From positions 39,434-103,433 of IMG/VR virus record IMGVR_UViG_3300033463_000048: a DNA stretch of 64,000 bases. One strand, written 5' to 3'. This DNA is from a virus (Duplodnaviria > Heunggongvirae > Uroviricota > Caudoviricetes). The position numbers and the translations under genes were made by a program. Positions 8,874-59,655 of this stretch are shown one piece after another (the first letter of the stretch is position 1; each line of letters opens with the position of its first letter). The notes under the pieces were generated by a model, which did no database searches, was not told the DNA's origin, and saw nothing but the letters and a program-made list of their open reading frames with translations.

Positions 8874-11243
8874 TTATTCACATTTTAAAATTTTTAAAAC
8901 TTCGCCAACATCGTTTAATTTAATGGATTTAATTCCAACAGTTAATTTTGATTGAAGTGGCACATCGTCAGAGGTTAATTTAATTGTAGAAAGGGAAGAA
9001 CCAATAATTAAGTCGACTTTTTGAGATATAGGTATAAAGTCTGCTAACGAATCAGTTCCGTTAAATTTTTGGATTTTTGAACCTTTAGTATTCTTTCCTT
9101 GAAGGCTAAATTCCTTATAGTCTGTTCTCTTAAAAAGTCCATTACGAGAGATTGAAATAATTTCTTTTGTATCTTTTGGAATTAAATGGGCGGCTATTAC
9201 TTCATCACCTTCATTTAATTTAATACCATGTACTCCCGCAGTTACACGACCAGTGGCGCGGACATCATCCGTTTTAGTAATAAGGAAGTTACCACTCTTG
9301 GTTGCAATACCAATATCTTCTTCATTACAAGGAAGAACCGCAACAATTTTATCACCATTATTAAGGTTGATCGCGCGTAGTGATCCACGTTTTAAGTTAT
9401 ATTCACTTAATTCAGTCTTCTTTAACATACCATCTTTAGTTATAAAGATTATATATTTTTGAGACTTATTAGATTGAGTGAGCGCGCAAACTCGGTTATT
9501 ATCTCCAAGAGAAATATAGTTTGAGATATATGTCTTTTGGTTTAGTTCAATAGAAGATGCTTTACAATTATACACATCACCTGACTCTGTAAAGAAAAGT
9601 AAATCACCCGTATTATCTGTAATAATAGAGGTTGTTACATATTCATCCTTATCGAGTTTGAGTTTATTACCCACACCACCTCTACGCTGAGTATAGAGAG
9701 TAGAGGACTCAATGGCGATTAGGTTATCTTTATTTGTAAGAGAAACCTGAAGTTGTTTTTTCTCTACGGGTTCATCATCAGTAGAAGAAAGATTCATAAC
9801 TCTCGTGCGGCGTGCATCACCAAATTTATCCGCAACTTCTTTCCAACCGTTTATCAACTGTTGGTTAAAGAGTTCTTCTGTATTTAAAATCTTTTCAATA
9901 CGTACGCTTTCTTTAACCAATTCTTCGCGTTCATCTTCAAGTTTCTTTACTTCCAAATGCGCAAGACGAGATAATTTCATATCTAATACGGCTTTTGCCT
10001 GCGCATCATCGAGTAAGAAATTTTTCTGTAATGCGGATGATGCGGTCGCAGTAGAAGAAGAAGTTTTAATTACTTGAACAACTTCCTCAATACTAGCGAG
10101 ACAGATTAAAAGCCCATCTATAATATGAATACGGTCTTTAATTTTCTTAAAATCAAATTCAAAACCACGTCGATATACTTCTTTTTCGTGATCAATATGG
10201 GCTTGAAGCATTTCTTTCCAAGTAAAGACTTTTGGATACCGCCCGTTTTCAAGCATTGTAAAATTAATCCCAAAATAAGATTGAAGAGAAGTATTCTTAA
10301 AAAGATACCTCAATACTTTATCGGGGTTAGCTGTTTTTGTAAGATAAATTTTAATTAGTGGTTTCTCACCGGTTAAATCATTAAATCTATCTATGCCTGG
10401 ATTTGTTAATTTCTTTTTTTCTTCTTCGTTAATTATATCTTCTAATTCTTTACAAATAGTATTCGTATAAACAGAATATGGAATTTCCGTAACTTCAAAA
10501 CATCTATCTTTAGGATTGTATTCAACCACACTTCTTATTTTACAAGCGGCTCCATTACCAACGCGCATAGATTCTTTTACTTCTGCTTCGTTATATAATA
10601 TACCTCCCGTTGCAAAGTCAGGAACACAATATATATCTTCAAAATCACAGTTTGGATTTTGCAAAAGAGTAATAAGTGCATTATTAATTTCTCTTATATT
10701 ATATTGTGGAATTGATGAAGCCGCACCAACTGCTATACCTTGCGAGCCATTACAAATATTGTAAAACCCTTTGCTTGGAATTACAGAAGGCAATTCATTT
10801 CCCTCTATACCAATAGGATTATCCCACCATTCTTTTATGGTATCTTTTGCAATATCATTAAAAAGATATTCTCCTAAAGCAGAAAATCTTATTTTAGTAT
10901 AACGCATAGCCGCCCAGTTTTCACTTTCAATAAGATTACCACCATTACCTTTTACTTCCATAAGAGGATATCTCATAGAAAAAGGCTGTGCAGCTCTCAT
11001 TATGATTCCTAAACAAGACGTATCACCATGTAGATACCAACCACCTTTAAGCGCATCCCCTACGGGACCTGTGGAAGCTTGATGGGGTTTATTGTGGGGA
11101 TACTTGTTTTTATACATACAATAAAATATTGCTCGTGCAGATGGTTTTATTGCATCTCTTACATCAATGAGGGCGCGACTTTGAATTGTCGCACCAGCAT
11201 ATTGAGTAAAACTTTCTTCTATTTTTTCCTTTAGATTACTCAT
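8874..11243 (-). CDS. gyrA: type II DNA topoisomerase subunit A (GyrA/ParC-like)
   Basis: SRALIDVRDAIKPSARAIFYCMY matches the GyrA active-site region; C-terminal beta-pinwheel-like repeats; 789 aa. Confidence 0.85.
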   Translation of the reverse strand: MSNLKEKIEESFTQYAGATIQSRALIDVRDAIKPSARAIFYCMYKNKYPHNKPHQASTGPVGDALKGGWYLHGDTSCLGIIMRAAQPFSMRYPLMEVKGNGGNLIESENWAAMRYTKIRFSALGEYLFNDIAKDTIKEWWDNPIGIEGNELPSVIPSKGFYNICNGSQGIAVGAASSIPQYNIREINNALITLLQNPNCDFEDIYCVPDFATGGILYNEAEVKESMRVGNGAACKIRSVVEYNPKDRCFEVTEIPYSVYTNTICKELEDIINEEEKKKLTNPGIDRFNDLTGEKPLIKIYLTKTANPDKVLRYLFKNTSLQSYFGINFTMLENGRYPKVFTWKEMLQAHIDHEKEVYRRGFEFDFKKIKDRIHIIDGLLICLASIEEVVQVIKTSSSTATASSALQKNFLLDDAQAKAVLDMKLSRLAHLEVKKLEDEREELVKESVRIEKILNTEELFNQQLINGWKEVADKFGDARRTRVMNLSSTDDEPVEKKQLQVSLTNKDNLIAIESSTLYTQRRGGVGNKLKLDKDEYVTTSIITDNTGDLLFFTESGDVYNCKASSIELNQKTYISNYISLGDNNRVCALTQSNKSQKYIIFITKDGMLKKTELSEYNLKRGSLRAINLNNGDKIVAVLPCNEEDIGIATKSGNFLITKTDDVRATGRVTAGVHGIKLNEGDEVIAAHLIPKDTKEIISISRNGLFKRTDYKEFSLQGKNTKGSKIQKFNGTDSLADFIPISQKVDLIIGSSLSTIKLTSDDVPLQSKLTVGIKSIKLNDVGEVLKILKCE

Positions 11244-11246
11244 TAT

Positions 11247-13109
11247 TTACTCCCTTATAGTTGAAAAATCAATTTTATTCATTATAAATTCTTTACGTGG
11301 TTCTACATTTTCACCCATCAAATCATAAAGAAGATTAATTGCTTCTTCATTCCATTCCATAGTTTCCAATCTTTGATATTGTGGACTAAACATAGAAGTT
11401 CTAACCTGTTCTGGCTCTAAAGAACCAAGACCCTTATTACGTTGAATATGTCCTTTTATAGTTGGACGTGCAGCATCCATTTCTTCATCTGTAAAATAAT
11501 AGCTTTCTTTCCCATTATGTTCTACAATATATAATGGAGAACGAAGCCAACATAAACGCCCTTCTTTAATAAATTCAGGCGCAAGGAATTGAAGAGCGGC
11601 CATAATTAAAAGACCAATATGATAACCATCTGCATCGGCATCAGTACATATTGCCAATTTTCCATAGCGCAATTTCTTGGAGTCATATTTTCCGGGAATA
11701 ATGTTCATTGCACTGAGAATAAGTTTAATTTCTTCATTTTCAAAAATTCTTTCTTCAGAATTTGAAAGGCAATTAATTATTTTACCTCTTAAAGCAAGAA
11801 GTCCAAATTTTTTATAATCGCGCCCTTGAGCAACACCGCCCAAAGCAGAATCACCTTCTTGAAGAAGAAGGATAGAATTTTCTCCTAAGAACTCAGCGTC
11901 TTTTAATTTATCAGATGCAAAAACTTTCTTCTTTTGATTTTTTTCTACTTCTTTTACCGCACCCAATACTTGTTGGCGCGCCTTTTCTGCTGCGGCTTCT
12001 GCTTTAGCAATTTTCTTCATTAATTCTACAATAGAATTAAATTCATCTGCGTGTCTAATTTTCATTTGCTTTAATGCATCAGAAAAAGCATTAGACGCGA
12101 GAGTGCGAAGATTTGCATTATTAATTTTCGATTTAGTTTGATTTGCAAAGGAAGGTTGCCCAACAGAACAGTTTATTACATAGAACATGCCCTTGCGGAT
12201 ACTATCCCCATCAAATTCAGATTTAGCAAGATTATTAAAAGTTCTTGTAATTGCGTTCTTTGCGCCCGTCACTGGTGTACCACCTTCGGGACAACGTAAA
12301 CCATTTACAAATACATATGATTGTTCGCGCCCATCAGACCATTGAAAGGCAATTTCAACTTTGTCTCCACTTTCATCTTGCGCGCTACCGGTTACAATAT
12401 GCTTATGTAATGGCTTTTGAATATTGTCTTTTACAAAATCTTGAATACCATTCTTAGAACAAAATGATTTCTTCTTTTTACCATCTTCTATTACTTCAAA
12501 AGTAATCCCGGTATAAAGATAAGAAATTGCTTTAATGTCTTCACAAATTTTGTCATAAGAATAAGTTATATCGCCATTCTTAAAAACTTTGGCGTCGGGC
12601 GCAAACGAGATATAAGTTCCATTCTTTTCTGAAGTTTTAAACTCTTTATAATCTTTAAGATTACCTTCTTCAAAATCTGCTTGCGCGCAAACTCCATCAC
12701 GATAGGATTTTACGGTAAACTTAGTAGAACTTAAACACACACACTTTGCGCCGATACCATTTAAGCCTGATACATTCTTATATACATGATCATCAAACTT
12801 ACCACCTGTATGGGATTTAGAATAGATAGAAACCAATACATTCTCTCCATCTTCTCTAATACCAAAAGGTACTCCACGTCCATAGTCACGTACAGTAATA
12901 GTATTGGTTTTTGTATCAAGGTCAATAGAAATTTTATCTCCATAACCGGCAATTGCTTCGTCAGTAGAGTTATTAATAATTTCCTTAAGTGCTTGATAGG
13001 CTCCATCACTATCATCCGATCCAAGATACATCTGGATACGGGTACGGACACCTGTACGGAAGTCTAATGATTTAATGTCATCAATTCCATAATTTTCCAT
13101 TAAACTCAT
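11247..13109 (-). CDS. gyrB: type II DNA topoisomerase subunit B (GyrB-like GHKL ATPase plus TOPRIM)
   Basis: GHKL motifs (IINNSTDEA, GLNGIGAK), TOPRIM EGDSALG, 620 aa immediately upstream of subunit A. Confidence 0.85.
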   Translation of the reverse strand: MSLMENYGIDDIKSLDFRTGVRTRIQMYLGSDDSDGAYQALKEIINNSTDEAIAGYGDKISIDLDTKTNTITVRDYGRGVPFGIREDGENVLVSIYSKSHTGGKFDDHVYKNVSGLNGIGAKCVCLSSTKFTVKSYRDGVCAQADFEEGNLKDYKEFKTSEKNGTYISFAPDAKVFKNGDITYSYDKICEDIKAISYLYTGITFEVIEDGKKKKSFCSKNGIQDFVKDNIQKPLHKHIVTGSAQDESGDKVEIAFQWSDGREQSYVFVNGLRCPEGGTPVTGAKNAITRTFNNLAKSEFDGDSIRKGMFYVINCSVGQPSFANQTKSKINNANLRTLASNAFSDALKQMKIRHADEFNSIVELMKKIAKAEAAAEKARQQVLGAVKEVEKNQKKKVFASDKLKDAEFLGENSILLLQEGDSALGGVAQGRDYKKFGLLALRGKIINCLSNSEERIFENEEIKLILSAMNIIPGKYDSKKLRYGKLAICTDADADGYHIGLLIMAALQFLAPEFIKEGRLCWLRSPLYIVEHNGKESYYFTDEEMDAARPTIKGHIQRNKGLGSLEPEQVRTSMFSPQYQRLETMEWNEEAINLLYDLMGENVEPRKEFIMNKIDFSTIRE

Positions 13110-13125: not shown

Positions 13126-13188
13126 ATATAAATTATACAATAATTTTGTTTAAAAATCAAATTTAGGCATCATTTATTGATGCCTAAA
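13126..13188 (-). promoter_or_regulatory. terminator hairpin (ttaggcatca...tgatgcctaa) followed by conserved promoter (minus orientation) upstream of gyrB-like gene
   Basis: attata 13132-37, aatcaa 13155-60, 17-bp spacer; hairpin 13163-13188. Confidence 0.65.
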
Positions 13189-13901
13189 GCTTTTTCAGTA
13201 TTTTCTTTAAATTTAATGTGTAATAATCCCGCAGATGGATCCCACGGTTTTGGATATATACAATGAACTATGGTTAATGGAATTTTTTCTACCTCACTTT
13301 GTCTATCAGTTAAACGAGAACAATTATAACAATGATTAATAAATTTTATTTTCCCCTTACAGATTGTATTAATAGCATCTTGGTCTGGGAATTTTAATTT
13401 TTTGGTTTGAAGTAAATTACATAATTTTAAATCAATATGATCTCTACGCATAGCACGCAAATTAAGAAGTAAAACACCACTATTTATATAATTTTCTTTT
13501 GTATGAATTCCAGTTTCTGCTTCTTTTACTCCACACATATAATTTTCTTCAAAATCAGTATTCCATAAATTTTTTATTTTATTATAAAAGAAAACGTCTA
13601 AATCAAGATAAAGTATTTTATCTTCAAGTAAAATTTGAGAAACATAACAACGAGTAAAAGACATATACGTCCAAGCATTATCTTTATTTGGTCCATCTTT
13701 TATATATTTTGGAAAATTATTTATATTAACTAATCTAACTCTTTTATCTAAAGGGTATGGAAATTCATCATCTTCTATAAAAAGATAAATACGATATACT
13801 TCTGGATTAGTTTTAACCAAATTATATATAATACCTGGCGCATATTCATATAAGTTTCTTGTAATGGAAAACATTACGGTTATATCATTATTACCATCCA
13901 T
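13170..13901 (-). CDS. family 8 glycosyltransferase (LgtC/galactosyl- or glucosyltransferase-like)
   Basis: DLDVFF (DxD), NSGVLLLNL and HCxxPKPW motifs typical of GT8. Confidence 0.7.
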   Translation of the reverse strand: MDGNNDITVMFSITRNLYEYAPGIIYNLVKTNPEVYRIYLFIEDDEFPYPLDKRVRLVNINNFPKYIKDGPNKDNAWTYMSFTRCYVSQILLEDKILYLDLDVFFYNKIKNLWNTDFEENYMCGVKEAETGIHTKENYINSGVLLLNLRAMRRDHIDLKLCNLLQTKKLKFPDQDAINTICKGKIKFINHCYNCSRLTDRQSEVEKIPLTIVHCIYPKPWDPSAGLLHIKFKENTEKALGINK

Positions 13902-14964
13902 ACATTTCTTTCTCCCGTTTAGTTTTCTTTGGCATATTTGTCCAAACTAACAAATCACGTGCTCTTGTGGCTGCTACATAACTTAAGCACTTTTCTTCAG
14001 TATTATACATACGCGCCCCAACCACAATTACGTTCTTTCGCTCTAAGCCTTTCGCGCTATGAATTGTGAGGATTTTAACTGTGTTGTCTTCCATTTTTTC
14101 TCGAAGTTGTTCTGTGGTTAATTCGTTTCTTTTAAGTATATCGTATGGAAGTCCAACATCTTTAAATTTTCGTGCCACTTCATCAATTTGCGCATTAGTA
14201 CGAGTAAGAACAAACCAATCACGATATTCGTCTGTACTCTTTCTAATTCCTTTTACAATTTTACTTAAGTCATAAGTCATATCATAAACTTTACCGATAT
14301 TATCTCGCGCGGGATAAGATGTGTCCATATAATCTAATCCGGCAAGATTGATAATACGTTTTGCAAAATTTAATATCGCGCGACTATTACGGAAATTTTT
14401 GGTTAGGTCGTAGGTTTTTATTTTGGGGTCTTTTGCTAAGTCAAGGAGTATGTCAGGTCGGCTACCGCGGAACGTATAAATACTTTGACGCCAATCGCCC
14501 ACCATCATCCATTTCTTTGGCTTAATATAGTCAAGGATAACCTTAAACTGCATATCTGTAGAATCTTGCGCCTCATCAAGAAATAGATAATCCACTTCTC
14601 TAATACAATGAAGATTCTTACTAATTAAGTTAAACAAATCATCAAACTTTTCTTCTGATATAATAAAAGAAGTATCAATTCCATTTGAAGTTAAAAGAGA
14701 ATTAACATAAGAATGGATAGTTCCTACAAACATTCCATCTTTATAATCTTCCCCAAGGCGTGCACGTAGAACTTCTGCGGCGTTATTTGTGAAAGTAAAA
14801 ACTACAATTCGCACGGGATTGGTATCTGGCATTTGAAGTACTTTTCTAACCTTTTCAGTTAAAGTTTCTGTTTTTCCACTTGCGGCTGTAGCATTTACTA
14901 CAATAAAATCTTCTGTTGAATTGATAACTGCTTGCTGTTCTTCTGTAAAATCTTTATATTCCAT
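13891..14964 (-). CDS. compact UvrD/PcrA-like SF1 helicase
   Basis: Motif I VVNATAASGKT, motif VI-like LTIHSAKGLERKNVIVVGA; 357 aa. Confidence 0.6.
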   Translation of the reverse strand: MEYKDFTEEQQAVINSTEDFIVVNATAASGKTETLTEKVRKVLQMPDTNPVRIVVFTFTNNAAEVLRARLGEDYKDGMFVGTIHSYVNSLLTSNGIDTSFIISEEKFDDLFNLISKNLHCIREVDYLFLDEAQDSTDMQFKVILDYIKPKKWMMVGDWRQSIYTFRGSRPDILLDLAKDPKIKTYDLTKNFRNSRAILNFAKRIINLAGLDYMDTSYPARDNIGKVYDMTYDLSKIVKGIRKSTDEYRDWFVLTRTNAQIDEVARKFKDVGLPYDILKRNELTTEQLREKMEDNTVKILTIHSAKGLERKNVIVVGARMYNTEEKCLSYVAATRARDLLVWTNMPKKTKREKEMYGW

Positions 14965-16052
14965 TAATTTTCCTCTTCTACTTGATATTCTATAAGTTTT
15001 CTTTTTTGAGAATTAGAATACCTAAAATATCTATTATGAGTATGCTTCTTTTTTCCATCGCAAACTTTTTTGATGTCATTATAAGAAAAACCCAATTCTT
15101 TTTCTGCTTGTGTGGAAGATTTATATTTTTTAATAATACTACCATTTTCATCTATTTCTTCTATTTCACAACATTGAGAAGATAAAAGATATTTTTCATA
15201 TCGTTCTTCAAAACTATCTATTCCATTAAGTCTAAACCAAATATACCCTCCAGCGGTAATTTGATTACCTAATGCTGCGGCTTTTATACTACTAACATCT
15301 ATTTTTAATTGTTTTGATGCTTCACCAGCACTTTTCCAATTCTTAACAAAATTACCCTCTAAGTCATATTGACAGAGTATTTTTGTTATTGTTTTATTAT
15401 TTTTAACATCTTCTATTATTTTATTTATATTTTGTTCATCTTTCTTATAAATCCATATATAACCACATCCATAATGATGTGAAGGAATAAGTTTAGGCAA
15501 ATCTAAACCAGTTTCTTTTTTTGCTTGAGCGTAATTTTCATATATTCCAATTAAGTCTCCATTAAAGGTATATTGTAGCACTGTTCGCGGTTGACAATAT
15601 AATTCCAAAGACTTAACTCTTTTTAGAATACAGCTACGAGATGCGCCTAAAAGATTAGCAACCACAGGAACAGATTTTAATTCTTTATATGCTTCTATAA
15701 TTTCTTCATCAGAGAATTTTTGATGACCGCTACCACCACTTGAGATATTATATCCTATTTCCTTATTTGTTGAATTATATAAATCAATATAATATATTTC
15801 TTTATCATTTAATTCTTCATTTTTTACTCTTTCTAGTATTTCTCTTTTAAAATTTTTTTTACCATATTTTTTAATAGCATTACATAAAGCAGGACAATCA
15901 TTATTTGGATTATTATAAGCCCAAAAAATATGTTGCTGCCATCTTATGGGTTCTGGTACAATAGTTTGACCTATATATATTTTATTATTAATTAAATTTG
16001 TAATTTTATAAATTACTCCCATATTATCCTCCAGACTTAATATTATATCCAT
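14964..16052 (-). CDS. GIY-YIG homing endonuclease
   Basis: GVIYKITNLINNKIYIGQT ... YNISSGG GIY-YIG core; C-terminal DNA-binding repeats. Confidence 0.8.
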   Translation of the reverse strand: MDIILSLEDNMGVIYKITNLINNKIYIGQTIVPEPIRWQQHIFWAYNNPNNDCPALCNAIKKYGKKNFKREILERVKNEELNDKEIYYIDLYNSTNKEIGYNISSGGSGHQKFSDEEIIEAYKELKSVPVVANLLGASRSCILKRVKSLELYCQPRTVLQYTFNGDLIGIYENYAQAKKETGLDLPKLIPSHHYGCGYIWIYKKDEQNINKIIEDVKNNKTITKILCQYDLEGNFVKNWKSAGEASKQLKIDVSSIKAAALGNQITAGGYIWFRLNGIDSFEERYEKYLLSSQCCEIEEIDENGSIIKKYKSSTQAEKELGFSYNDIKKVCDGKKKHTHNRYFRYSNSQKRKLIEYQVEEEN

Positions 16053-17070
16053 AGATATCTGATTTATAAAAATCTATATAAAATTTTTCTCTTTCACCTA
16101 GATTTTTATCTAATGGAACTTCTTCTAATATTGTAAAAGTAAAATTATCCCAATTACTAAATAATGCTTTATGGATATTTGTTCTACTTATTGTTCCAAT
16201 ATTAAGTGAGGTTTTTATGTGCTCAGTCCATCTTTTTGTGATTTCTGCTTTAGTTTTACCTATATAAATTTCTCCACTTTTTTCATTTTTAATCATATAT
16301 ATAACATTTTTGGGATCTTTATTTCCTAAAGTTCTTTTCAGCATATTTTTAAAAGGTTGTTGAATATATTCTGTCCATATTATTTTATAAATGGTTTCTT
16401 TATTATTAAAATGATTTAATATAGAAACCAAATAGTTTATATCTGCTTTTGCTTCATCGGATAAACAAACTCTATAGAAATCTTGATTTTCAGAAATTTC
16501 ACGTTGACGTAGAATTTCCTTATTTATAACTTCGCGTTTTTGACGATAGTCTTCAACTTCTGTTTTAAGAGAAGAAAGTTCGAGATTCGCCCTCTCGATT
16601 TCTTCTCTATGCTTTTCCAAGAACTCTTCTAATTCTTCGCTTGACTCAGATTTAAGTTGTGAGAGTATAGAATCAAGTTGAGATTTATAAGAAGTATAAT
16701 TGGAATTATAGTAGTTTTGAAGAGTAAGGTCAATATTGTCTTTTTTAATTTGGAGTTGATTTTGAAGTTGAGCTTCAATTTCTTGCGCGCTTTCACGCTT
16801 AGATTCCAAAGTTTTTTCAATGCCGCGCAGATTAGATTTAGCAACTTCAGCATTTGCAATGGCCACGTCTGCGAGATTTTTGGCTTGGGTAAGTCTTTCT
16901 TCCTCTTTCCGCTCCAAGGACGAAATTTCCCATAATCTATTTTTATAAGATTCTTCTAATTTTTTATTTAATTCTATATAACTATCTTTAGAAAGTTTAT
17001 TTACTTTCTTTTTAAAGTAAATTATATAAATTAATAAACCTATAATTAAAGTAATTAAAAAATAATACAT
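16024..17070 (-). CDS. membrane-anchored coiled-coil protein with C-terminal GIY-YIG nuclease domain
   Basis: N-terminal TM helix LITLIIGLLIYIIYF, long Glu/Lys/Leu-rich heptad region, C-terminal VIYMIKNEKSGEIYIGKT...YNIKSGG. Confidence 0.6.
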   Translation of the reverse strand: MYYFLITLIIGLLIYIIYFKKKVNKLSKDSYIELNKKLEESYKNRLWEISSLERKEEERLTQAKNLADVAIANAEVAKSNLRGIEKTLESKRESAQEIEAQLQNQLQIKKDNIDLTLQNYYNSNYTSYKSQLDSILSQLKSESSEELEEFLEKHREEIERANLELSSLKTEVEDYRQKREVINKEILRQREISENQDFYRVCLSDEAKADINYLVSILNHFNNKETIYKIIWTEYIQQPFKNMLKRTLGNKDPKNVIYMIKNEKSGEIYIGKTKAEITKRWTEHIKTSLNIGTISRTNIHKALFSNWDNFTFTILEEVPLDKNLGEREKFYIDFYKSDIYGYNIKSGG

Positions 17071-17078: not shown

Positions 17079-17125
17079 CCCTCCCTTATATAGTAATTAT
17101 ACCATAAATAAGAGAGGGTGTCAAA
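17079..17125 (-). promoter_or_regulatory. promoter (TTGACA-17-TATAAT, minus strand) whose -10 lies in the loop of an 10-bp hairpin
   Basis: ccctccctta 17079-88 / taagagaggg 17109-18; attata 17096-17101; tgtcaa 17119-24. Confidence 0.55.
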
Positions 17126-29456: not shown

Positions 29457-29490
29457 AAGGCATCAGATTTATTTCTGATGCCTTTTCCAA
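29457..29490. terminator. bidirectional rho-independent terminator
   Basis: aaaggcatcaga-tttat-ttctgatgcctttt between convergent genes. Confidence 0.75.
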
Positions 29491-29867
29491 TCTTCATCGT
29501 TCTTCCATTTACTTCGCGCCAAAAACTTATTCTGAAATAAGTCTTCCGCACAATTTATATCTTCAATTTCCCAATAGGGAATACAGTAAATATAAATCTT
29601 ATTCGCTAAACAATAAGAAATTTTTCTCCTATCTCGTTCTTGCGCCTTATGAAATTCGGTCCGGTTTTTGAAATAGATAGGTATCTGTTGGTAATGTTGG
29701 GCGCCGTTGAACTCGAGGATTGAATTTCTACTTGGGATATAGAAATCAAACCTATACTTTCCTCCACGTAAATCCTCAAACGTCTTTTCGCGCTCAAACT
29801 TAATTCCTTTTTTATTTAATAAATCTGCAACTTTTTCTTCGCCTTTACTCATAATTATCCACCTCAC
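29469..29867 (-). CDS. PD-(D/E)XK-like (DUF559/Vsr-like) endonuclease inserted opposite to the structural operon
   Basis: GIKFEREK...YRFDFYIP...ILEFNGAQHY resembles the restriction-endonuclease-like fold. Confidence 0.45.
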   Translation of the reverse strand: MRWIIMSKGEEKVADLLNKKGIKFEREKTFEDLRGGKYRFDFYIPSRNSILEFNGAQHYQQIPIYFKNRTEFHKAQERDRRKISYCLANKIYIYCIPYWEIEDINCAEDLFQNKFLARSKWKNDEDWKRHQK

Positions 29868-32464: not shown

Positions 32465-32498
32465 AAAAGAGAGGAGTCAATTATGACTCCTCTTTTAT

Positions 32499-33599
32499 TT
32501 ACTCTAATACCTGCGCCCAATCACATTCTCTAGGCGTCTTATCATCACGGAACCTAATAAGGCGGGGGTGGCGAATATGATGAGATACCTTATCAATCTG
32601 CATACCACCAACTTCTACAACCTTACCTTTATACGCTTCAGGGTTAGCTAAAACTTCTTCAGTAAGTCCGCTCAAATCACCAAAATAAACTGGCTGTCCA
32701 TCCTTTACCAGTCCAAGTTTAAGCGATCCCGCCCAACCATTATAAAAGTTCTTTGTAACTGGCACAATCGGTTCACCACGCATATAATCTTGGTAGTAAA
32801 CACCCTCAGGTAGATTCTCTTCTTTAATATTATCATACCAATAAGTCCACAACTCAATAGATTTTCCTTGATAAAGTTTAGAAGCAGGATTATACCCCAT
32901 GATAAAGCAATCAATAGTTTGTTTAAGTTCTTGCTTTACCTTAATACTTACTCGCGCGGGAGTACGCTTATCATATACGATAGCGTCATTGCGCATAATA
33001 ACCATTCCTTCGCGCCCACTAGCAAGATATTCTTGAAGTTTGTCCCATAATTCTTCACCCTCATAAAATTCTGCATAGTGAATATATTCACTAGAATATT
33101 TCTTCATTTGGTTAATATAATTTTGACGTTCTTTGTATGGAGTTTTATTTAGATTTTTCCCTTCAAAAGCCATACAATCAAAGATATGAAAATGAAGTGG
33201 GGTTTTCTTTTGACGTTCTATTGCTTTTTCTTTAAGGCAACCAAGAATACTAGTAACATTTTTACTACCCTCTGCATCTGGAATATAAACTTCTGCAAGA
33301 ACACAAGTTCCATTTGGGAGAATACCCATCCATTCTTTAAGCTGCGGCACCCAATCAATTTTATCCACAACTTCCCCGTTTACATTTCGTGAGCGCGCGA
33401 TCATAAAACAATTGCCATCTTCATCCTTAAGGATGCGTTGATAAAATCCATCTACTTTTAAACTCCCACTATATTCTCCTGAAAAAATAGCATTTTTTAC
33501 AGTTTCTTTTCTAATATTTTCAGAAGTAGAAGCGGGAAAACTCCAATATTTCATTGGAGAAATATTAAGCCAATCAATTTTATTAATATAACCTTTCAT
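32499..33599 (-). CDS. ATP-dependent DNA (or RNA) ligase
   Basis: Adenylation motif I SLKVDGF (KxDG), OB-fold-like C-terminal region. Confidence 0.65.
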   Translation of the reverse strand: MKGYINKIDWLNISPMKYWSFPASTSENIRKETVKNAIFSGEYSGSLKVDGFYQRILKDEDGNCFMIARSRNVNGEVVDKIDWVPQLKEWMGILPNGTCVLAEVYIPDAEGSKNVTSILGCLKEKAIERQKKTPLHFHIFDCMAFEGKNLNKTPYKERQNYINQMKKYSSEYIHYAEFYEGEELWDKLQEYLASGREGMVIMRNDAIVYDKRTPARVSIKVKQELKQTIDCFIMGYNPASKLYQGKSIELWTYWYDNIKEENLPEGVYYQDYMRGEPIVPVTKNFYNGWAGSLKLGLVKDGQPVYFGDLSGLTEEVLANPEAYKGKVVEVGGMQIDKVSHHIRHPRLIRFRDDKTPRECDWAQVLE

Positions 33600-34420
33600 T
33601 CAATATATCTCCATTCGTATCCATTACAAGTTTTTCTTTTACCTTTACACACTTTTGAAATACTGCTAGGATCTGTTTTAGTTTCTTCACCGGCTTGTTT
33701 TATTGTGTTATATTCTTTTATCAGTTTTCCATTTTTGTATTGTCCTACTTTTCTTAATGGACATTGTTTTAATTTTCTTTTTTGAGGAAGTTCATCTCCT
33801 TCTCTTATCCAAAAGAAACCTTTATATCCATTTTTAGTATTACAAGCAGTTTTTATACTATCCTTATTAAAACCAGTAATATAACTTGCTTCCTTTAAAG
33901 AAGAATAAGAGTTTACTAATTCTAATTCTTCTGTATATTGTAATACTCTTGATTCACTTTGCTTTATCCCGCTGTGTAAAAATCCTCTATCAATAATTTC
34001 TTCTTTATCATAAAGTCCTAATTCTTTCAACACATCTACAACAGATGAATACCACACCCCAAGTTCTTCTGATATTTGACGGACTGATTGTCCTTCTAGA
34101 TATTTAGTAGCAACTTCTTCTCTTTGTATCCATTTTCGGCCATCTCCTCCAATGGTGGTATTGTATCCATTTTTAATTGTGTCTAATTCTTTAATCCAAT
34201 AGATTTCTCTTTCATTAAGAATTTCATCAGAAACATTCTCTTCTAAAGGAATTATAGAAAAATGTTCTAAACCATATTTATTCATCGCTCGATATAAATG
34301 AGTATCGCTCTTCTTTGAAGCATAAATATGTTTACTCCAACGCGAAGCTAAAGTTTCAACAGTTTTCCCAATATAAATTTTTGAATTAAGATCATTTATA
34401 ATTTTATAAATAGTTCCCAT
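33596..34420 (-). CDS. GIY-YIG homing endonuclease
   Basis: GTIYKIINDLNSKIYIGKT ... YNTTIGGDG; C-terminal HTH-like repeats. Confidence 0.8.
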   Translation of the reverse strand: MGTIYKIINDLNSKIYIGKTVETLASRWSKHIYASKKSDTHLYRAMNKYGLEHFSIIPLEENVSDEILNEREIYWIKELDTIKNGYNTTIGGDGRKWIQREEVATKYLEGQSVRQISEELGVWYSSVVDVLKELGLYDKEEIIDRGFLHSGIKQSESRVLQYTEELELVNSYSSLKEASYITGFNKDSIKTACNTKNGYKGFFWIREGDELPQKRKLKQCPLRKVGQYKNGKLIKEYNTIKQAGEETKTDPSSISKVCKGKRKTCNGYEWRYIE

Positions 34421-34508: not shown

Positions 34509-35045
34509 TTAATTTTCTTTTTCTTTCAAATTTAAAGTCTCAAGGAAGAACTCTGCGGTTTCCTTTAACTCATCAATCGTTCCGTCATTTAAAATCCAAT
34601 AATCATAAGTATAATCAAAGACTTCTTCATCTGCATGATTGGAAGTTTCTTTTTCTTCTGCTTCTTTTCTGGATACAAATATAGTTGTCGCGCTGAATAC
34701 GTCTTTAAGTTTCTCAAGTTCCTTTGGTTCTCTTACACAAATAAATAATGCGCAATCATCTATAACTCCTTCAGATGCAAGTACGTCTTCCCAAAGTCCT
34801 TTTTCATATTCCAACTCTTTAAGAGGAACGTCTCTCCACTCGGTAAGTAAATCTTTCATGTCAGAAAGAAACTTTCTGTCCTTTGGAGTTTTCTCTCCAT
34901 TCCAACCACAATAAAATGCAATTTTCTTTACAAAATCAATTGATGAAATGCTATGTGCGCGAACACCCAAGATATCTTTACAATAATTAATAAATGTGTC
35001 TTTACCAGCGGTTGCACAGCCATTAACCAAAATTACTTTTATCAT
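34509..35045 (-). CDS. deoxynucleoside monophosphate kinase-like P-loop kinase
   Basis: MIKVILVNGCATAGKDTF resembles the T4 gp1 dNMP kinase N-terminus. Confidence 0.55.
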   Translation of the reverse strand: MIKVILVNGCATAGKDTFINYCKDILGVRAHSISSIDFVKKIAFYCGWNGEKTPKDRKFLSDMKDLLTEWRDVPLKELEYEKGLWEDVLASEGVIDDCALFICVREPKELEKLKDVFSATTIFVSRKEAEEKETSNHADEEVFDYTYDYWILNDGTIDELKETAEFFLETLNLKEKEN

Positions 35046-36000
35046 ATTCTACTCCTAGTTCATTAAGCCACTCTAAAAAAGTTTGTGGAAATACATAAAT
35101 TTTCTTATCTATTGATTTAAATTGGTGTATTTTATCAGAAAGTTCTTCCCAAAATTTAGGACTATTTATTGCTTTTTTTATTGCTGGAATCGAAAAAAAA
35201 TCTTTTAAAAGACGGATTATTTCTTCAGGAATTTCGAATCCGCGTGCTAATGCTGTTTGGAAATATCCGTATGAATGAAAACCATATCCTGCCAGTTTAT
35301 ATACATTTATTCCCTTTTCGTTAAGAAAAATAACTGCTTTGCATACAGCAGTAATATAATCTAGTCCTAAAATACCATTACGTGCAGTGCCTGTTGCTCT
35401 AGTTAAAGAATTATTTTCATCTCTCCAAAGATATAATGGATCCTCTAAATATTTTACATTAGAAGTAAGTCCCATACACTTGATTAAGAAACAAATATCT
35501 TCATTACCTCTAAGCCCTTCTTCAAATCTTATATCATTATTTCTAAGAAAAGAAGTTTTAAAAATTTTTCCATGAAGCCAAATCCTGGCACTAGTTTTAG
35601 GATGAATAAGTTGATCTGCGCTTTTCTTTGATTCTACAGCAATTGTAGACATTACTATGTCAGTATTTAAGTCACGAGTAATTTCATAACTTAATTTTTT
35701 TATTGTATTAGGCATCAGCATATCATCTGAATCAAGAAAAGTTACATAATCTATATTAGATCTATAACATATATCTAACCCATATTGGCGCGCCATGCCT
35801 GGACCGCTATTCTTTTCCATTCTAAAGCATTTAATATGTAATTTATCTACGTATTCATCACATATTTCACATAAATCAATATCACTACAATCATCAATTA
35901 CAATTGTGAAAAAACGTTTGTTTGTTTGATTAACCAAAGAGTCAAGAGCCTCTCTTAACTGATCTGGTCGGTTATAAGCTGGAATTATAACTGCTAACAT
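35023..36000 (-). CDS. family 2 glycosyltransferase (GT-A fold)
   Basis: IIPAYNRPDQLREALDSL...IDDCSD and DSDD motifs. Confidence 0.75.
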   Translation of the reverse strand: MLAVIIPAYNRPDQLREALDSLVNQTNKRFFTIVIDDCSDIDLCEICDEYVDKLHIKCFRMEKNSGPGMARQYGLDICYRSNIDYVTFLDSDDMLMPNTIKKLSYEITRDLNTDIVMSTIAVESKKSADQLIHPKTSARIWLHGKIFKTSFLRNNDIRFEEGLRGNEDICFLIKCMGLTSNVKYLEDPLYLWRDENNSLTRATGTARNGILGLDYITAVCKAVIFLNEKGINVYKLAGYGFHSYGYFQTALARGFEIPEEIIRLLKDFFSIPAIKKAINSPKFWEELSDKIHQFKSIDKKIYVFPQTFLEWLNELGVEYDKSNFG

Positions 36001-36456
36001 TTACTTCTCCTTGACCGCGGCGCCCTTAGCAAGACAGTCAACCATTTCATTGCCTTTAATACCCGCGTGTCCTTTTACTTTAAAAAATTCATATTGTGGA
36101 TTCTCAAAGAAAGGAATTAACTCTTCCCACAGATCGCGGTTTTTAACTACCGTGTTCTTCGAGGTAATCCACCCATTTTCTTTCCACTTTATATACCACT
36201 TTTGCTTATAAGCATTAATAAAGTAGGCAGAGTCACTATAAATACCAATTACTTCTCCCATATCGGCATAACGTTTAGCTAACTTGCACCCTTCAAGCGC
36301 ACCCATAAGTTCCATTCGGTTATTTGTGGTTTTTTCAAAAGGGCCGCCTGAGAAGTAGAATTTATCTTGTCCTATCTGAAGCATAATACCGTATCCACCT
36401 ATAGATTCTTCGGTACCATTACCGCGCGTACTACCATCAGTATAGACTTGAATCAT
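36001..36456 (-). CDS. rnhA: ribonuclease H (RNase HI)
   Basis: YTDGS, NNRMEL, SDS, KVKGHAGIKGNEMVDCLA catalytic motifs. Confidence 0.8.
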   Translation of the reverse strand: MIQVYTDGSTRGNGTEESIGGYGIMLQIGQDKFYFSGGPFEKTTNNRMELMGALEGCKLAKRYADMGEVIGIYSDSAYFINAYKQKWYIKWKENGWITSKNTVVKNRDLWEELIPFFENPQYEFFKVKGHAGIKGNEMVDCLAKGAAVKEK

Positions 36457-36836
36457 TTTATTTTTCCTTTCGTTTTAAGATAGTAATCAATAAGATCCTT
36501 TGCTTTATAATACTCTAAATCAAGTACTCCTTCGTAGGACTTCTTGATTATTTTTTGAAGTTTAACTACATCAACACCTTTTTCTTTTAACTTTTTAATT
36601 TTACAACCATACTTTTTTCCAAGTTTTCTTCTTAAGAAGAAACCTAAATTGGCTTTAAGTTCTTTTCTAACTAAGTTCGCAACCATCGCGCCCATTGCTA
36701 AATAGACCTCTTCTCTATCCCCGAAGCGATTATCAAAACTACTAAAGTCTAGACAAATCTCTTTCTTATCAATAGAATACATATTGATTAAGGTTGCAAT
36801 AGATGATAAAATTCCATCATAATCTTTTTCACTCAT
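36453..36836 (-). CDS. hypothetical basic protein
   Basis: 127-aa ORF with promoter motif upstream at 36860-36898. Confidence 0.4.
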   Translation of the reverse strand: MSEKDYDGILSSIATLINMYSIDKKEICLDFSSFDNRFGDREEVYLAMGAMVANLVRKELKANLGFFLRRKLGKKYGCKIKKLKEKGVDVVKLQKIIKKSYEGVLDLEYYKAKDLIDYYLKTKGKIK

Positions 36837-40164: not shown

Positions 40165-40236
40165 AGGGGTATAGCACAATGGTTAGTGCACCAGGCTTTG
40201 ACCCTGGGGATGCGGGTTCGATCCCCACTACCCTTG
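40165..40236 (+). tRNA. tRNA-Gln (anticodon TTG)
   Basis: Acceptor AGGGGTA/TACCCTT (one G-U), D-arm GCAC-AATGGTTA-GTGC, anticodon arm CCAGG-CTTTGAC-CCTGG, T-loop TTCGATC. Confidence 0.65.
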
Positions 40237-40266
40237 CTTAAGATTATTAAAAGGAGAAATAAAAAA

Positions 40267-43630: not shown

Positions 43631-44435
43631 GGTATTAAAAATGACAAATATTTATAAGATAACAAATATTGTTAATGGTAATATTTATATTGGAAAAACA
43701 ATTAACAATATTAATGACCGTTGGAAAGAACATATTTACTCTGCGATATCAAAAGATAAAGATGGTAATTGTCCTCTTCATTGTGCTATTAGAAAATATG
43801 GAAAAGAAAATTTTTTAATAGAATTAATTGATAGGTGCGAGGATTTTGATAGTTCAAATAAGGAAAAGTATTGGATAAAATACTATGATTCTTATAATAA
43901 TGGATATAATGCTACTTTGGGTGGGGATGGAAATCCATTATATGATAGAGAATATATCAAAAAATTATGGGACGATGGGCTGTCTAATAAAGAAATTAGA
44001 GAAATTATTGGTTGTGATAAGAAAGTAATAAGAAAGACTCTTTATTCTTATGGCATAACAAAAGAAGAGCTTTATAAAAGAAGAGGGAAGAATATAGAGA
44101 AAGATATAGATAAAGATTATTTAAAAGAGTTATGGGATGAAGAGCTAACTCTAACCCAAATTGCCGAAATTTTTAATGTTGAACAAAAAACTATTATGCG
44201 AAGATTAGAAAAAATTGGTATTGACTCTAATCAACGACATAATAGATATTATGATTCACTTTTAAAGGTTCATTGGTCTGTTATTTTAAATTTGTATAAA
44301 GAAGGAAAAACTATTTCAGAAATTCGAAAAATAACGGGCTGTGGATTTAATTCTATAGAAAAAACAATAATCAGGCATCGAGACTATTTAAAAGATAAAA
44401 ATGAAGTCAGGACTATGGCTGATTTGCTTGATTAA
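43623..44435 (+). CDS. GIY-YIG homing endonuclease
   Basis: NIYKITNIVNGNIYIGKT ... YNATLGGDG; repeated HTH-like modules. Confidence 0.8.
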   Translation: MIKVLKMTNIYKITNIVNGNIYIGKTINNINDRWKEHIYSAISKDKDGNCPLHCAIRKYGKENFLIELIDRCEDFDSSNKEKYWIKYYDSYNNGYNATLGGDGNPLYDREYIKKLWDDGLSNKEIREIIGCDKKVIRKTLYSYGITKEELYKRRGKNIEKDIDKDYLKELWDEELTLTQIAEIFNVEQKTIMRRLEKIGIDSNQRHNRYYDSLLKVHWSVILNLYKEGKTISEIRKITGCGFNSIEKTIIRHRDYLKDKNEVRTMADLLD

Positions 44436-59616: not shown

Positions 59617-59655
59617 AGTTGAGAGAGAAATCTCACTTTATATTACAACAATATC

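What the first reader, a model, noticed from the sequence alone, without database searches (positions are those of the whole stretch)
13170..13901. GT8 and GT2 glycosyltransferases plus a T4-gp1-like dNMP kinase in DNA-metabolism operons: possible DNA sugar hypermodification
A GT8 enzyme (13170..13901) is co-transcribed with a UvrD-like helicase and topoisomerase II. A GT2 enzyme (35023..36000) is adjacent to a dNMP kinase (34509..35045), RNase H and a ligase.

In T-even and some Bacillus phages, glycosyltransferases in such contexts glucosylate hydroxymethylated bases, and the dNMP kinase phosphorylates the modified nucleotide.

Alternatively these enzymes modify teichoic acid or another host receptor.
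Basis: inference. Interest (0 to 1): 0.55.

Follow-up and report, generated by a model that had tools for sequence, protein, structure and literature searches.

The report
Two phage sugar-transferases, target unproven
A large uncultured rumen phage carries two genuine, probably active sugar-adding enzymes inside its DNA-replication operons, but the tests I could run point to a cell-wall-type polymer or other non-DNA target at least as strongly as to sugar-decorated DNA.

Summary
The genes are real. 13170-13901(-) is a GT8 enzyme and 35023-36000(-) is a GT2 enzyme. Both have intact catalytic motifs and confident models: GT8 resembles LgtC and GlyE, GT2 resembles TarS, TarP and RmlT.

The window is about 64 kb of a roughly 100 kb low-GC rumen phage with an SPbeta-like replication module.

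The headline idea, sugar hypermodification of hydroxymethylated DNA, fails its own proposed test.
- No thymidylate-synthase-like hydroxymethylase, C5-methyltransferase or TET/JBP oxygenase was found in the window.
- None was found in about 47 kb of the closest sampled relative.
- A TS homologue occurs in only 5 of roughly 100 clade loci.
- The phage strongly avoids CATG, GATC, AGCT, GGCC and CTAG. Fully substituted hmC phages do not avoid such sites.
- The dNMP-kinase-like gene is a core clade gene, present with or without GT2, and does not match T4 Dnk.

Three things still favour DNA: operon embedding, DNA methyltransferases in the same slot of a relative, and a published GT2+GT8 precedent on 5hmC.

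My ranking is teichoic-acid-type polymer (0.35), DNA (0.22), virion protein (0.15).

Separately, the clade shows an unexplained 5-fold GCGC and 25-fold GCGCGC enrichment.

The parts
13170..13901 (-). GT8 retaining glycosyltransferase (243 aa), soluble, minimal catalytic domain
   Evidence: Pfam PF01501, E 1.4e-24. AlphaFold2 model pLDDT 91.8. Foldseek: LgtC 7e-16, GlyE 2e-14. D100/D102, D173-Q174-D175 invariant and H213 nearly invariant in 40 homologues.
13891..14964 (-). UvrD-like SF1 helicase; its stop overlaps the GT8 start by 11 nt
   Evidence: PF00580 1.4e-29, PF13361 5e-18. The helicase-GT8-topoisomerase order is conserved in L001 (91% GT8 identity) and L003 (56%).
13162..13188 (.). Bidirectional terminator-like hairpin over the GT8 stop codon, followed by a promoter-like site at 13160-13132(-)
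   Evidence: 11-bp stem and T-rich tails on both strands. The promoter-like site is TTGATT-17-TATAAT.
8874..13109 (-). Type II topoisomerase subunits B (11247-13109) and A (8874-11243)
   Evidence: tblastn to phage topoisomerase II / gyrase. Pfam families in the orthologues: DNA_gyraseB, Toprim, DNA_topoisoIV.
17096..17124 (-). Consensus sigma-70-like promoter (12/12 with TG) at the head of the operon that ends with GT8
35023..36000 (-). GT2 inverting glycosyltransferase (325 aa), soluble, TarS/TarP-like over its whole length
   Evidence: PF00535 2e-25. AlphaFold2 model pLDDT 92.3. Foldseek: TarS 1.4e-18, TarP 1e-17, RmlT 1e-14. D90, D92, D93, E167, D168 invariant in 42 homologues.
34509..35045 (-). 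P-loop kinase, probable dNMP kinase; core gene of the clade; overlaps the GT2 stop by 23 nt
   Evidence: PF21448 26.0 bits (cut-off 27.1); phrog_139 3.5e-9. Adjacent to RNase H without GT2 in L204, and in L202, where the kinase frame is interrupted. No match to T4 Dnk.
36001..36456 (-). RNase H; its stop abuts the GT2 start
   Evidence: PF00075 2e-31.
36453..36836 (-). 127-aa protein of unknown function, first gene of the RNase H-GT2 operon
   Evidence: No Pfam or PHROG match. A 127-aa gene holds the same place before RNase H in the identical contig L013 and in the relative L218/L219.
33596..34420 (-). GIY-YIG homing endonuclease between the kinase and the ligase
   Evidence: PF01541 9.5e-10, I-HmuI NUMOD-like 3.6e-8.
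32499..33599 (-). ATP-dependent DNA ligase, last gene of the operon; followed by a bidirectional terminator at 32467-32496
   Evidence: PF01068 4e-13, phrog_114 4e-29. Terminator.

Best explanation
The two genes encode cytoplasmic, soluble and probably active glycosyltransferases that work in sequence to build a short glycan.

- The TarS/TarP-like inverting GT2 transfers the first sugar from a nucleotide sugar onto a hydroxyl of a polyol-phosphate-type polymer.
- The LgtC/GlyE-like retaining GT8 then adds an alpha-linked hexose to that sugar.

The most likely acceptor is a host cell-wall glycopolymer precursor, either wall teichoic acid or a related polymer, modified at the cytoplasmic face of the membrane during infection. 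This would remodel the cell surface, as prophage-encoded TarP does in S. aureus. It could block adsorption by competing phages or by progeny.

On this reading the pair does not globally decorate phage DNA. Both genes are accessory cargo placed in replication operons. The neighbouring kinase is an unrelated core replication gene.

Shown: family membership, intact catalytic motifs, folds, operon anatomy, accessory status, absence of a recognisable base-hydroxylating enzyme, and restriction-site avoidance.

Inferred: the order of action, the acceptor and the biological benefit.
For: - GT2 fold. The best solved matches are all wall-teichoic-acid glycosyltransferases, aligned over 320-354 columns and so including the C-terminal helical domain: TarS 1.4e-18, TarP 1e-17, RmlT 1e-14. 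The best PHROG is the GtrB-like O-antigen conversion family at 6.8e-12. Predicted pI is 5.8, not basic.
- GT8 fold. It matches enzymes that extend an existing glycan (LgtC, GlyE, LARGE1), and its catalytic residues are invariant.
- One pathway. GT2-GT8 fusion proteins exist (P0200, P0201, P0206), and GT8 sits next to GT2 genes in other rumen phages (L007-L010, L014). GT2 occurs without GT8 at the helicase-topoisomerase slot in L181 and L216, and no GT8 lies next to the helicase in L218. This fits GT2 as primer and GT8 as extender.
- Bacterial relatives. The nearest GT2 homologues are chromosomal GT2 genes of ruminant-gut Bacillota MAGs.
- Gram-positive-type host. The lysin carries SH3_3 domains and the tape measure protein of the sampled relative carries a PG_binding_1 domain.
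- Against the DNA rival: no TS, C5-methyltransferase or TET enzyme was found. Palindrome avoidance is strong in this phage and in the other GT2-bearing relatives L216 and L218.
Against: - The phage looks virulent. No integrase or repressor was found in the window, and no near-identical prophage copy of GT2 was found among 185,579 species genomes. Remodelling of newly made teichoic acid during a single lytic cycle would give limited benefit.
- The genes are not in a moron-like cassette. They are translationally coupled to replication genes, and the RNase H-GT2-kinase-ligase order is kept down to 35% identity.
- No NCBIfam TarS/TarP-type model is matched. Only generic GT2 families score, and all are far below their cut-offs.
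- Whether the unknown host makes a polyol-phosphate teichoic acid cannot be told.
- TarP is also the best PDB hit for proven DNA GT-A enzymes, although at a weaker E of 1e-5 to 1e-6. The fold therefore does not exclude DNA.
Confidence: 0.35

Rival explanations
1. DNA sugar hypermodification. GT2 puts a first sugar on a hydroxylated pyrimidine in phage DNA and GT8 extends it, giving protection from host nucleases.
For: - Both genes are translationally coupled to replication genes.
- Synteny is conserved: GT8 down to 56% identity and GT2 down to 35%.
- GT8 homologues were inserted a second time, directly after NrdD-NrdG in L282 and L054, next to genes for nucleoside 2-deoxyribosyltransferase-like proteins and a xanthine/uracil permease.
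- In relative L216 the same helicase-topoisomerase slot holds DNA methyltransferases: D12 class 9e-11, N6_N4 1e-4.
- Direct precedent: a TarP/JGT-like GT-A adds the first sugar to 5hmC and GT8-like enzymes add further sugars (Pyle et al.).
Against: - No acceptor-forming enzyme. No TS-like hydroxymethylase or 5hoC synthase, C5-methyltransferase or TET/JBP was found among all window ORFs or in 46.6 kb of relative IMGVR_UViG_3300031992_000039.
- A TS homologue is present in only 5 of roughly 100 clade loci.
- No base-modification enzyme appears within 10 kb of this GT8 family in five independent genomic contexts.
- GT2 is not a TAGT member (16.5 bits against a cut-off of 27.5). Its match to phrog_842 is weak, at 5e-4.
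- CATG, GATC, AGCT, GGCC and CTAG stand at about half the count expected from synonymous-codon shuffles, with z between -3.2 and -7.2. Phages with hydroxymethylated cytosine show no such avoidance.
- Pyle et al. themselves rate GT contigs without a neighbouring 5mYOX or ThyS as less likely to act on DNA.
Confidence: 0.22
2. Virion protein glycosylation. The pair O-glycosylates capsid or tail proteins, as described for mycobacteriophages and chloroviruses.
For: - The closest GT8 homologues outside this lineage (40-46% identity) lie in ~38-40 kb rumen siphophages. There they form clusters with one or two GT2 genes, and in L009/L010 a sugar epimerase, next to terminase, portal, scaffold and capsid genes.
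- GlyE, the second-best structural match of GT8, extends protein-linked glycans.
- Literature on mycobacteriophage virion glycosylation was located.
Against: - In this window both genes sit in replication operons on the strand opposite the tail genes.
- No GT2 match to a known protein O-glycosyltransferase ranks above the teichoic-acid enzymes.
- In siphophages the position just upstream of the terminase gene is also a common place for DNA-modification genes (my own knowledge), so that context is ambiguous.
Confidence: 0.15
3. Another soluble acceptor. The pair glycosylates a host protein as part of takeover, or a small molecule or nucleoside as a detoxifying or counter-defence step.
For: - GT8-fold enzymes include protein-modifying glycogenin and UGGT.
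- The GT2 model also matches the nucleoside glycosyltransferase AvpGT at 7.5e-14.
- In L282 and L054 the GT8 lies among nucleoside-salvage genes.
Against: - The AvpGT match has an rmsd of about 12 Å and ranks below the teichoic-acid enzymes.
- No specific candidate acceptor could be identified.
Confidence: 0.1

Closest known systems
TarP (prophage-encoded) and TarS of Staphylococcus aureus; RmlT of Listeria monocytogenes (wall teichoic acid glycosyltransferases, GT2)
   Same: They are the best full-length structural matches of the window GT2. They share the GT-A catalytic domain with a D-x-D-D motif and an E-D pair. All are soluble cytoplasmic enzymes, and TarP is phage-borne.
   Different: - Identity is only 20-24%, TM-score is 0.6-0.67 and rmsd is 6-8 Å.
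- No curated TarS or TarP sequence model is matched.
- The gene sits in a replication operon of an apparently virulent phage, not in a lysogenic-conversion cassette.
- It is paired with a GT8 extender.
'Subclass I' phage 5hmC glycan pathways (Pyle et al., bioRxiv 10.1101/2023.12.21.572611)
   Same: The same pair of enzyme types is involved. A TarP/JGT-like GT-A adds the first sugar. A family-8-like GT (resembling general stress protein A, WaaJ and WaaO) adds further sugars.
   Different: - Those pathways are defined by an adjacent C5-methyltransferase and 5mYOX, which make the 5hmC acceptor. Nothing of that kind is recognisable here.
- Here the two glycosyltransferase genes lie 21 kb apart in two different operons.
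T-even phage hmC glucosylation (gp42 hydroxymethylase, gp1 dNMP kinase, alpha- and beta-glucosyltransferases)
   Same: Glycosyltransferase genes are scattered among early DNA-metabolism genes, and a small P-loop kinase is present.
   Different: - There is no gp42-type enzyme.
- The T4 alpha- and beta-glucosyltransferases have a GT-B fold (my own knowledge), whereas these are GT-A.
- The kinase does not match T4 Dnk and is independent of the glycosyltransferases.
- This genome avoids restriction sites, unlike hmC phages.
LgtC (Neisseria) and GlyE (Streptococcus pneumoniae), GT8
   Same: They are the best structural matches of the window GT8 (7e-16 and 2e-14). The DXD, DQD and His positions are conserved.
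   Different: The window protein is a bare 243-aa catalytic domain. It lacks the C-terminal membrane-association helices of LgtC and the extra domain of GlyE. Identity is 21%.

Membership tests
Glycosyltransferase family 8 (Pfam PF01501, retaining GT-A) | Profile match above the curated threshold | tested here: met
   87.5 bits against a cut-off of 24.3, E 1.4e-24.
Glycosyltransferase family 8 (Pfam PF01501, retaining GT-A) | DXD metal/nucleotide-sugar motif, DQD motif and C-terminal His | tested here: met
   D100, D102 and D173-Q174-D175 are invariant, and H213 is at least 90% conserved, in 40 homologues. The equivalence to LgtC residues rests on my own knowledge.
Glycosyltransferase family 8 (Pfam PF01501, retaining GT-A) | GT-A fold superposable on solved GT8 enzymes | tested here: met
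   Model pLDDT 91.8. LgtC at E 7e-16 with TM 0.71, plus GlyE, 3tzt and glycogenin.
Glycosyltransferase family 2 (Pfam PF00535, inverting GT-A) | Profile match above the threshold, and conserved acidic motifs | tested here: met
   90.1 bits against a cut-off of 23.3. D90, D92, D93, E167 and D168 are invariant in 42 homologues.
TarS/TarP-type wall teichoic acid glycosyltransferases | Full-length fold similarity, including the domain after the GT-A core | tested here: met
   TarS 1.4e-18 and TarP 1e-17 over 320-354 columns, TM 0.6-0.67, rmsd 6-8 Å.
TarS/TarP-type wall teichoic acid glycosyltransferases | Sequence-level assignment by a curated model | tested here: not met
   NCBIfam returns only generic GT2 families, with scores far below their cut-offs (best 74 bits against 423). 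No TarS or TarP model is matched.
TarS/TarP-type wall teichoic acid glycosyltransferases | The host makes a polyol-phosphate teichoic acid, and the enzyme glycosylates it | not testable with these tools
   The host is unknown. The closest bacterial GT2 homologues lie in ruminant Bacilli MAGs.
Phage DNA glycosylation systems (T-even; TET-associated; ThyS-associated) | An enzyme in the same genome that creates the hydroxyl acceptor on a base (TS-like hydroxymethylase or 5hoC synthase, or a C5-methyltransferase plus TET/JBP) | tested here: not met
   None is recognisable among the window ORFs or in 46.6 kb of the closest sampled relative. About 12 kb of the genome remains unsampled, and several proteins of 190 aa or more have no family match.
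Phage DNA glycosylation systems (T-even; TET-associated; ThyS-associated) | The glycosyltransferase belongs to a known DNA-glycosyltransferase family (TAGT PF20691; phrog_842 beta-glucosyl-HMC-alpha-glucosyltransferase) | tested here: not met
   TAGT scores 16.5 bits against a cut-off of 27.5. phrog_842 scores E 5e-4, against 6.8e-12 for the GtrB-like family.
Phage DNA glycosylation systems (T-even; TET-associated; ThyS-associated) | Relaxed avoidance of restriction sites, as expected for globally protected DNA | tested here: not met
   Against synonymous-codon shuffles: CATG 0.55, GATC 0.60, AGCT 0.48, GGCC 0.51, CTAG 0.63, with z between -3.2 and -7.2.
Phage DNA glycosylation systems (T-even; TET-associated; ThyS-associated) | Modified nucleosides in virion DNA | not testable with these tools
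   The phage is uncultured and only an assembled sequence is available.
T4 gp1-type dNMP kinase (Pfam PF21448) | Profile match above the threshold, and similarity to the solved T4 enzyme | tested here: inconclusive
   26.0 bits against a cut-off of 27.1, on the C-terminal 65 residues only. phrog_139 gives 3.5e-9. A P-loop G9..G14-K15-D16-T17 is visible in the sequence. No PDB match to T4 Dnk was found with the sequence or with a family profile.

The most novel reading that the evidence does not exclude
The GT2/GT8 pair glycosylates phage DNA after all, but at a subset of sites. The acceptor would be made by an enzyme of no known family, one of the unannotated proteins of about 190-660 aa. In that case these phages would carry a new, partial and sequence-dependent sugar modification. 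It might be connected with the clade-wide, unexplained 5-fold GCGC and 25-fold GCGCGC enrichment. Against such a link, the enrichment is also seen in loci of relatives where no GT2 or GT8 gene was found.
Probability: 0.08. Interest if true: 0.8.

Novelty: new member of a known kind. Interest (0 to 1): 0.35.

Why it matters
If the pair acts on the cell envelope, an apparently virulent large phage of ruminant-gut Bacillota would be carrying TarP-like receptor remodelling inside its replication programme. That bears on phage competition and host range in the rumen.

If the pair acts on DNA, it would be a glycosylation route without any known acceptor-forming enzyme, which would be a real discovery.

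Either way, the analysis shows that glycosyltransferases next to replication genes are not enough to call DNA hypermodification. The acceptor-forming enzyme and the restriction-site statistics need to be checked as well.

Tried and rejected
- **Close relatives among isolated phages.** There is no nucleotide match, and GT8 and GT2 give only 19-31% protein matches. Enterocloster phages share the kinase at 33-34%, but the neighbouring 307-aa gene is not a glycosyltransferase.
- **Retrieving this phage's own left flank.** The exact genome is not in the JGI collection, where the best match is 75%. The 103 kb contig that carries the identical GT2 was not delivered. I therefore walked along a relative with 75% polymerase identity.
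- **Walking from the right end with the TROVE-like protein.** This returned only relatives at 47% identity or less and was of no use.
- **UvrD single-protein scan.** It found one locus. I replaced it with a topoisomerase IIB alignment scan, which gave 35 loci.
- **The kinase as a partner of GT2.** Rejected. RNase H, kinase and ligase are contiguous without GT2 in L204, and in L202, where the kinase frame is interrupted.
- **GCGC enrichment as a consequence of the glycosyltransferases.** Rejected. The enrichment is present in clade loci where no GT2 or GT8 was found.
- **GCGC enrichment from codon usage, dinucleotide slippage or VSP-like repair.** Rejected.
- **PDB sequence searches of five unannotated proteins and of the siphophage GT8 C-terminal extension.** No hits.
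- **BFVD fold search of GT2.** Only unnamed viral GT2 proteins were returned, and no T-even enzyme appeared among the listed matches.
Full report
**What the window is.** The 64-kb window has 34.7% G+C. It belongs to an uncultured phage of about 100 kb from ruminant gut metagenomes.
- Contigs carrying an identical GT2 reach 103,433 bp. A relative whose GT8 is 91% identical lies on a 100,152-bp contig from a metagenome assembly.
- No isolated phage matches at the nucleotide level.
- The left third of the window is a replication module on the minus strand: a DnaE-like PHP polymerase that runs off the window (PHP and DNA_pol3_alpha), RecJ, a Toprim primase, DnaB, AAA_24, a YorF-like protein, topoisomerase II A and B, GT8, a UvrD-like helicase and GIY-YIG homing endonucleases. 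I recognise this gene order as the yorF-yorL block of Bacillus prophage SPbeta (my own knowledge).
- Tail and lysis genes follow on the plus strand. Next comes a second minus-strand operon: a 127-aa protein, RNase H, GT2, the kinase, a homing endonuclease and the ligase. The rest holds further early genes and 16 tRNA genes.

**Checking the observation.** Both glycosyltransferase calls are correct at the stated coordinates.
- GT8 matches PF01501 at E 1.4e-24, and GT2 matches PF00535 at E 2e-25.
- GT8 overlaps the helicase stop by 11 nt. GT2 abuts the RNase H stop and overlaps the kinase start by 23 nt (coordinates).
- A terminator-like hairpin at 13162-13188 and a promoter-like site lie between GT8 and topoisomerase IIB. 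GT8 is therefore the last gene of the helicase operon, and co-transcription with the topoisomerase is uncertain.
- The dNMP-kinase label is weak. Pfam DNMK scores below its cut-off and matches the C-terminal part only. phrog_139 gives 3.5e-9. Neither the sequence nor a family profile finds T4 Dnk in the PDB.

**Are the enzymes functional, and what do they resemble?**
- GT8 has 271 homologues at E of 1e-5 or lower. In a 40-sequence alignment the DXD pair (D100, D102) and D173-Q174-D175 are invariant, and H213 is nearly so.
- The GT8 model (pLDDT 91.8) matches LgtC (7e-16), GlyE, an Anaerococcus GT8, LARGE1, UGGT and glycogenin. Most of these extend an existing glycan with an alpha-linked sugar.
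- The GT2 model (pLDDT 92.3) matches the wall-teichoic-acid glycosyltransferases over its whole length: TarS (1.4e-18), TarP (1e-17) and RmlT (1e-14). The nucleoside glycosyltransferase AvpGT follows, at a poor rmsd.
- D90, D92, D93, E167 and D168 of GT2 are invariant in 42 homologues.
- Neither protein has a signal peptide or membrane segment (read directly from the sequences). Predicted pI is 8.0 for GT8 and 5.8 for GT2.

**The two enzymes probably act in one pathway.**
- GT2-GT8 fusion proteins occur among the GT2 homologues (P0200, P0201, P0206).
- A 72-kb rumen phage contig carries one free GT8 plus two fusions.
- The next-closest GT8 homologues (40-46% identity) sit beside one or two GT2 genes in ~38-40 kb rumen siphophages, in L009/L010 with a sugar epimerase as well.
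- GT2 occurs without GT8 at the helicase-topoisomerase slot in L181 and L216, and no GT8 follows the helicase in L218. I infer that GT2 lays the first sugar and GT8 extends it.

**Both genes are accessory; the kinase is core.**
- Among the 23 of 35 relatives retrieved with topoisomerase IIB in which the slot lies between hits to both flanking genes, none has a GT8 in it.
- Elsewhere that slot holds small ORFs, nuclease-like proteins or homing endonucleases. In L216 it holds DNA methyltransferases: D12 class 9e-11 and N6_N4 1e-4.
- RNase H, kinase and ligase are contiguous without GT2 in L204, and in L202, where the kinase reading frame is interrupted. GT2 lies between RNase H and the kinase in the window, in L216 and L218 (35-39% identity) and just upstream of the kinase in L181.
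- The kinase therefore does not travel with GT2, and its adjacency is no argument for a modified nucleotide.
- GT8 homologues (34-36% identity) were also inserted right after NrdD-NrdG in L282 and L054. There they lie beside genes for nucleoside 2-deoxyribosyltransferase-like proteins and a xanthine/uracil permease.

- All window ORFs were scanned against Pfam and in part against PHROGs and NCBIfam. None matched a thymidylate-synthase family protein, C5-methyltransferase or TET/JBP oxygenase.
- I walked 46.6 kb along the closest sampled relative, IMGVR_UViG_3300031992_000039 (polymerase 75% identical). The order there is polymerase (interrupted by homing endonucleases), NrdD, NrdG, dCMP deaminase, a 304-aa dUTPase, RuvC and then tail genes including the tape measure protein. 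No hydroxymethylase was found.
- In two sets of 80 polymerase-centred loci (which share some contigs), 103 carry the NrdD block. A TS homologue occurs in five of them: L042, L071, L259, L275 and L276.
- Limits: about 12 kb of the genome, presumably head genes, was not sampled. This phage's own flank could not be retrieved. Several proteins of 190-664 aa have no family or PDB match.

**Restriction-site statistics.**
- Under a maximal-order Markov model, the two most under-represented of all 256 tetramers are palindromes: CATG (0.36, z -9.9) and GATC (0.58). GGCC (0.37) and CTAG (0.60) follow.
- I then shuffled synonymous codons within genes, which keeps the proteins and the codon usage. The ratios were CATG 0.55, GATC 0.60, AGCT 0.48, GGCC 0.51 and CTAG 0.63, with z between -3.2 and -7.2.
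- Other GT2-bearing relatives (L216, L218) and the siphophages with GT2/GT8 clusters (L007, L009) also avoid such sites strongly.
- Rusinov et al. found that coliphages with a hydroxymethylase avoid 2.4% of host sites, against 55.8% for relatives without one (PMC6286503).
- The avoidance argues against global base substitution in this phage. It does not exclude partial or motif-specific modification.

**What still favours DNA.**
- The genes are embedded in replication operons, and insertion among DNA or nucleotide-metabolism genes has happened more than once.
- DNA methyltransferases occupy the same slot in a relative.
- Pyle et al. (bioRxiv 10.1101/2023.12.21.572611) showed that TarP/JGT-like GT-A enzymes put the first sugar on 5hmC. 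They also showed that GT8-like enzymes (resembling GspA, WaaJ and WaaO) add further sugars, and that other pathways depend on an epimerase.
- However, those pathways are defined by a neighbouring C5-methyltransferase and 5mYOX, or by ThyS. The authors regard the 65% of GT contigs lacking these as less likely to act on DNA.
- Arabinosylated 5-hydroxycytosine also needs a TS homologue (PMC13326640).
- GT2 is not a member of TAGT and barely touches phrog_842.

**Verdict.** The pair is a real two-step glycan-building module of unknown acceptor. My ranking is below; the remainder is unassigned.

| Acceptor | Confidence |
|---|---|
| Teichoic-acid-type cell-wall polymer | 0.35 |
| DNA | 0.22 |
| Virion protein | 0.15 |
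| Another soluble acceptor | 0.10 |

This is a new member of known kinds of phage glycosyltransferase and of moderate interest. None of the three main readings is comfortable. The cell-wall reading fits the fold but not the apparently virulent lifestyle. The DNA reading fits the context but lacks an acceptor-forming enzyme.

**A separate, stranger observation.**
- The window holds 311 GCGC against 58 expected from base composition, 217 CGCG, and 43 GCGCGC against 1.7 expected.
- The sites occur in all three codon phases. Their spacing fits a Poisson process, and density is equal in coding and non-coding DNA.
- The excess survives synonymous-codon shuffling: GCGC z +18.5 and GCGCGC z +12.9.
- Other dinucleotide repeats are not enriched, and one-mutation neighbours of GCGC are not depleted.
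- The excess is 2-10 fold in nearly all members of the polymerase clade. It is absent from candidate host-like bacterial loci and from an Enterocloster phage.
- Two clade members, L042 and L259, have no GCGC at all.
- Site positions are kept more than those of other GC-rich tetramers at 88% identity, but they turn over by 72% identity while the density persists.
- The excess does not depend on GT2 or GT8 being present. I have no explanation for it.

Noticed in passing
whole window 1-64000; also L001, L003, L011, L013, L015-L094 and L181-L215: There is a large genome-wide excess of alternating G/C words. GCGC occurs 311 times against 58 expected, CGCG 217 times, and GCGCGC 43 times against 1.7 expected. 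The excess survives synonymous-codon shuffling (z +18.5). It appears in all codon phases, with Poisson spacing and equal density in coding and non-coding DNA. It is shared by nearly the whole polymerase clade, is absent from host-like bacterial loci, and does not depend on GT2 or GT8. Two clade members (L042, L259) have zero GCGC. The cause is unknown.
   Followed up: partly
whole window: Four-base palindromes are strongly avoided. Against synonymous shuffles the ratios are CATG 0.55, GATC 0.60, AGCT 0.48, GGCC 0.51 and CTAG 0.63. TCGCGA occurs once against 10.6 expected under the Markov model. Relatives avoid different sets of sites, for example GATC 2 of 71 expected in L071. This suggests host-specific restriction pressure.
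   Followed up: partly
window 59161-63934 and 40165-40237: ARAGORN tRNA genes: a cluster of 15 at 59161-63934 and tRNA-Gln at 40165. Rfam confirms 13 of the 16. One tRNA-like call, with a four-base anticodon (59161-59229), is not confirmed by Rfam.
   Followed up: partly
window 60176-61765 (+): A 529-aa TROVE/Ro-like protein (DUF2828 + DUF7788; phrog_850 'RNA-binding protein', E 9e-131) sits inside the tRNA cluster. The same family is widespread in large phage contigs (378 hits in IMG/VR).
   Followed up: no
window 14964-16052, 16024-17070, 33596-34420, 43623-44435 and 62205-62816; L015 12595-13404 and 15100-15924: Homing endonuclease genes are dense: four GIY-YIG and one HNH in the window. 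One GIY-YIG domain (16024-17070) is fused to an N-terminal membrane and coiled-coil region. In the relative, GIY-YIG genes split the DnaE-like polymerase into two ORFs.
   Followed up: no
window 42014-43630 (+): The PhoH-like protein is unusually long at 538 aa. The PhoH domain covers only residues 369-524, and there is a weak Hint-domain match at 120-157. This may be an intein or another insertion.
   Followed up: no
L216 18277-20713 (relative; the slot between UvrD and topoisomerase IIB): In a relative that has GT2 but no GT8 at this slot, the slot holds two to three DNA methyltransferase-like genes: D12 class 9e-11, N6_N4 1e-4 and a weak AviRa-like match. Other relatives carry EEP nuclease, DUF2726-like and GIY-YIG genes there. 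The slot is a hot spot for DNA-directed accessory genes.
   Followed up: partly
L282 17847-21094 and L054 17967-21056: In two clade members a GT8 homologue follows NrdD-NrdG. It is itself followed by genes for nucleoside 2-deoxyribosyltransferase-like proteins and a xanthine/uracil permease, an unusual nucleobase-salvage cassette for a phage.
   Followed up: partly
L096 10904-11818 (relative); conserved in 40 of the loci compared in the first tblastn survey: The clade's dUTPase is 304 aa. The dUTPase domain covers only residues ~133-228, and an N-terminal extension of about 130-140 aa is uncharacterised. dCMP deaminase is present in some members, and a TS homologue in only five loci.
   Followed up: no
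P0010, P0011, P0071 and related proteins (L007-L010): The GT8 homologues of small rumen siphophages carry a conserved C-terminal extension of about 90 aa that ends in a lysine-rich tail (for example KPKKKKTSKK). This suggests binding to a polyanion such as DNA, teichoic acid or membrane. No PDB match was found.
   Followed up: partly
window 29469-29867 (-): A lone minus-strand 132-aa ORF lies inside the plus-strand tail-gene block. It has a weak DUF559 (Vsr-like endonuclease fold) match, E 0.005.
   Followed up: no
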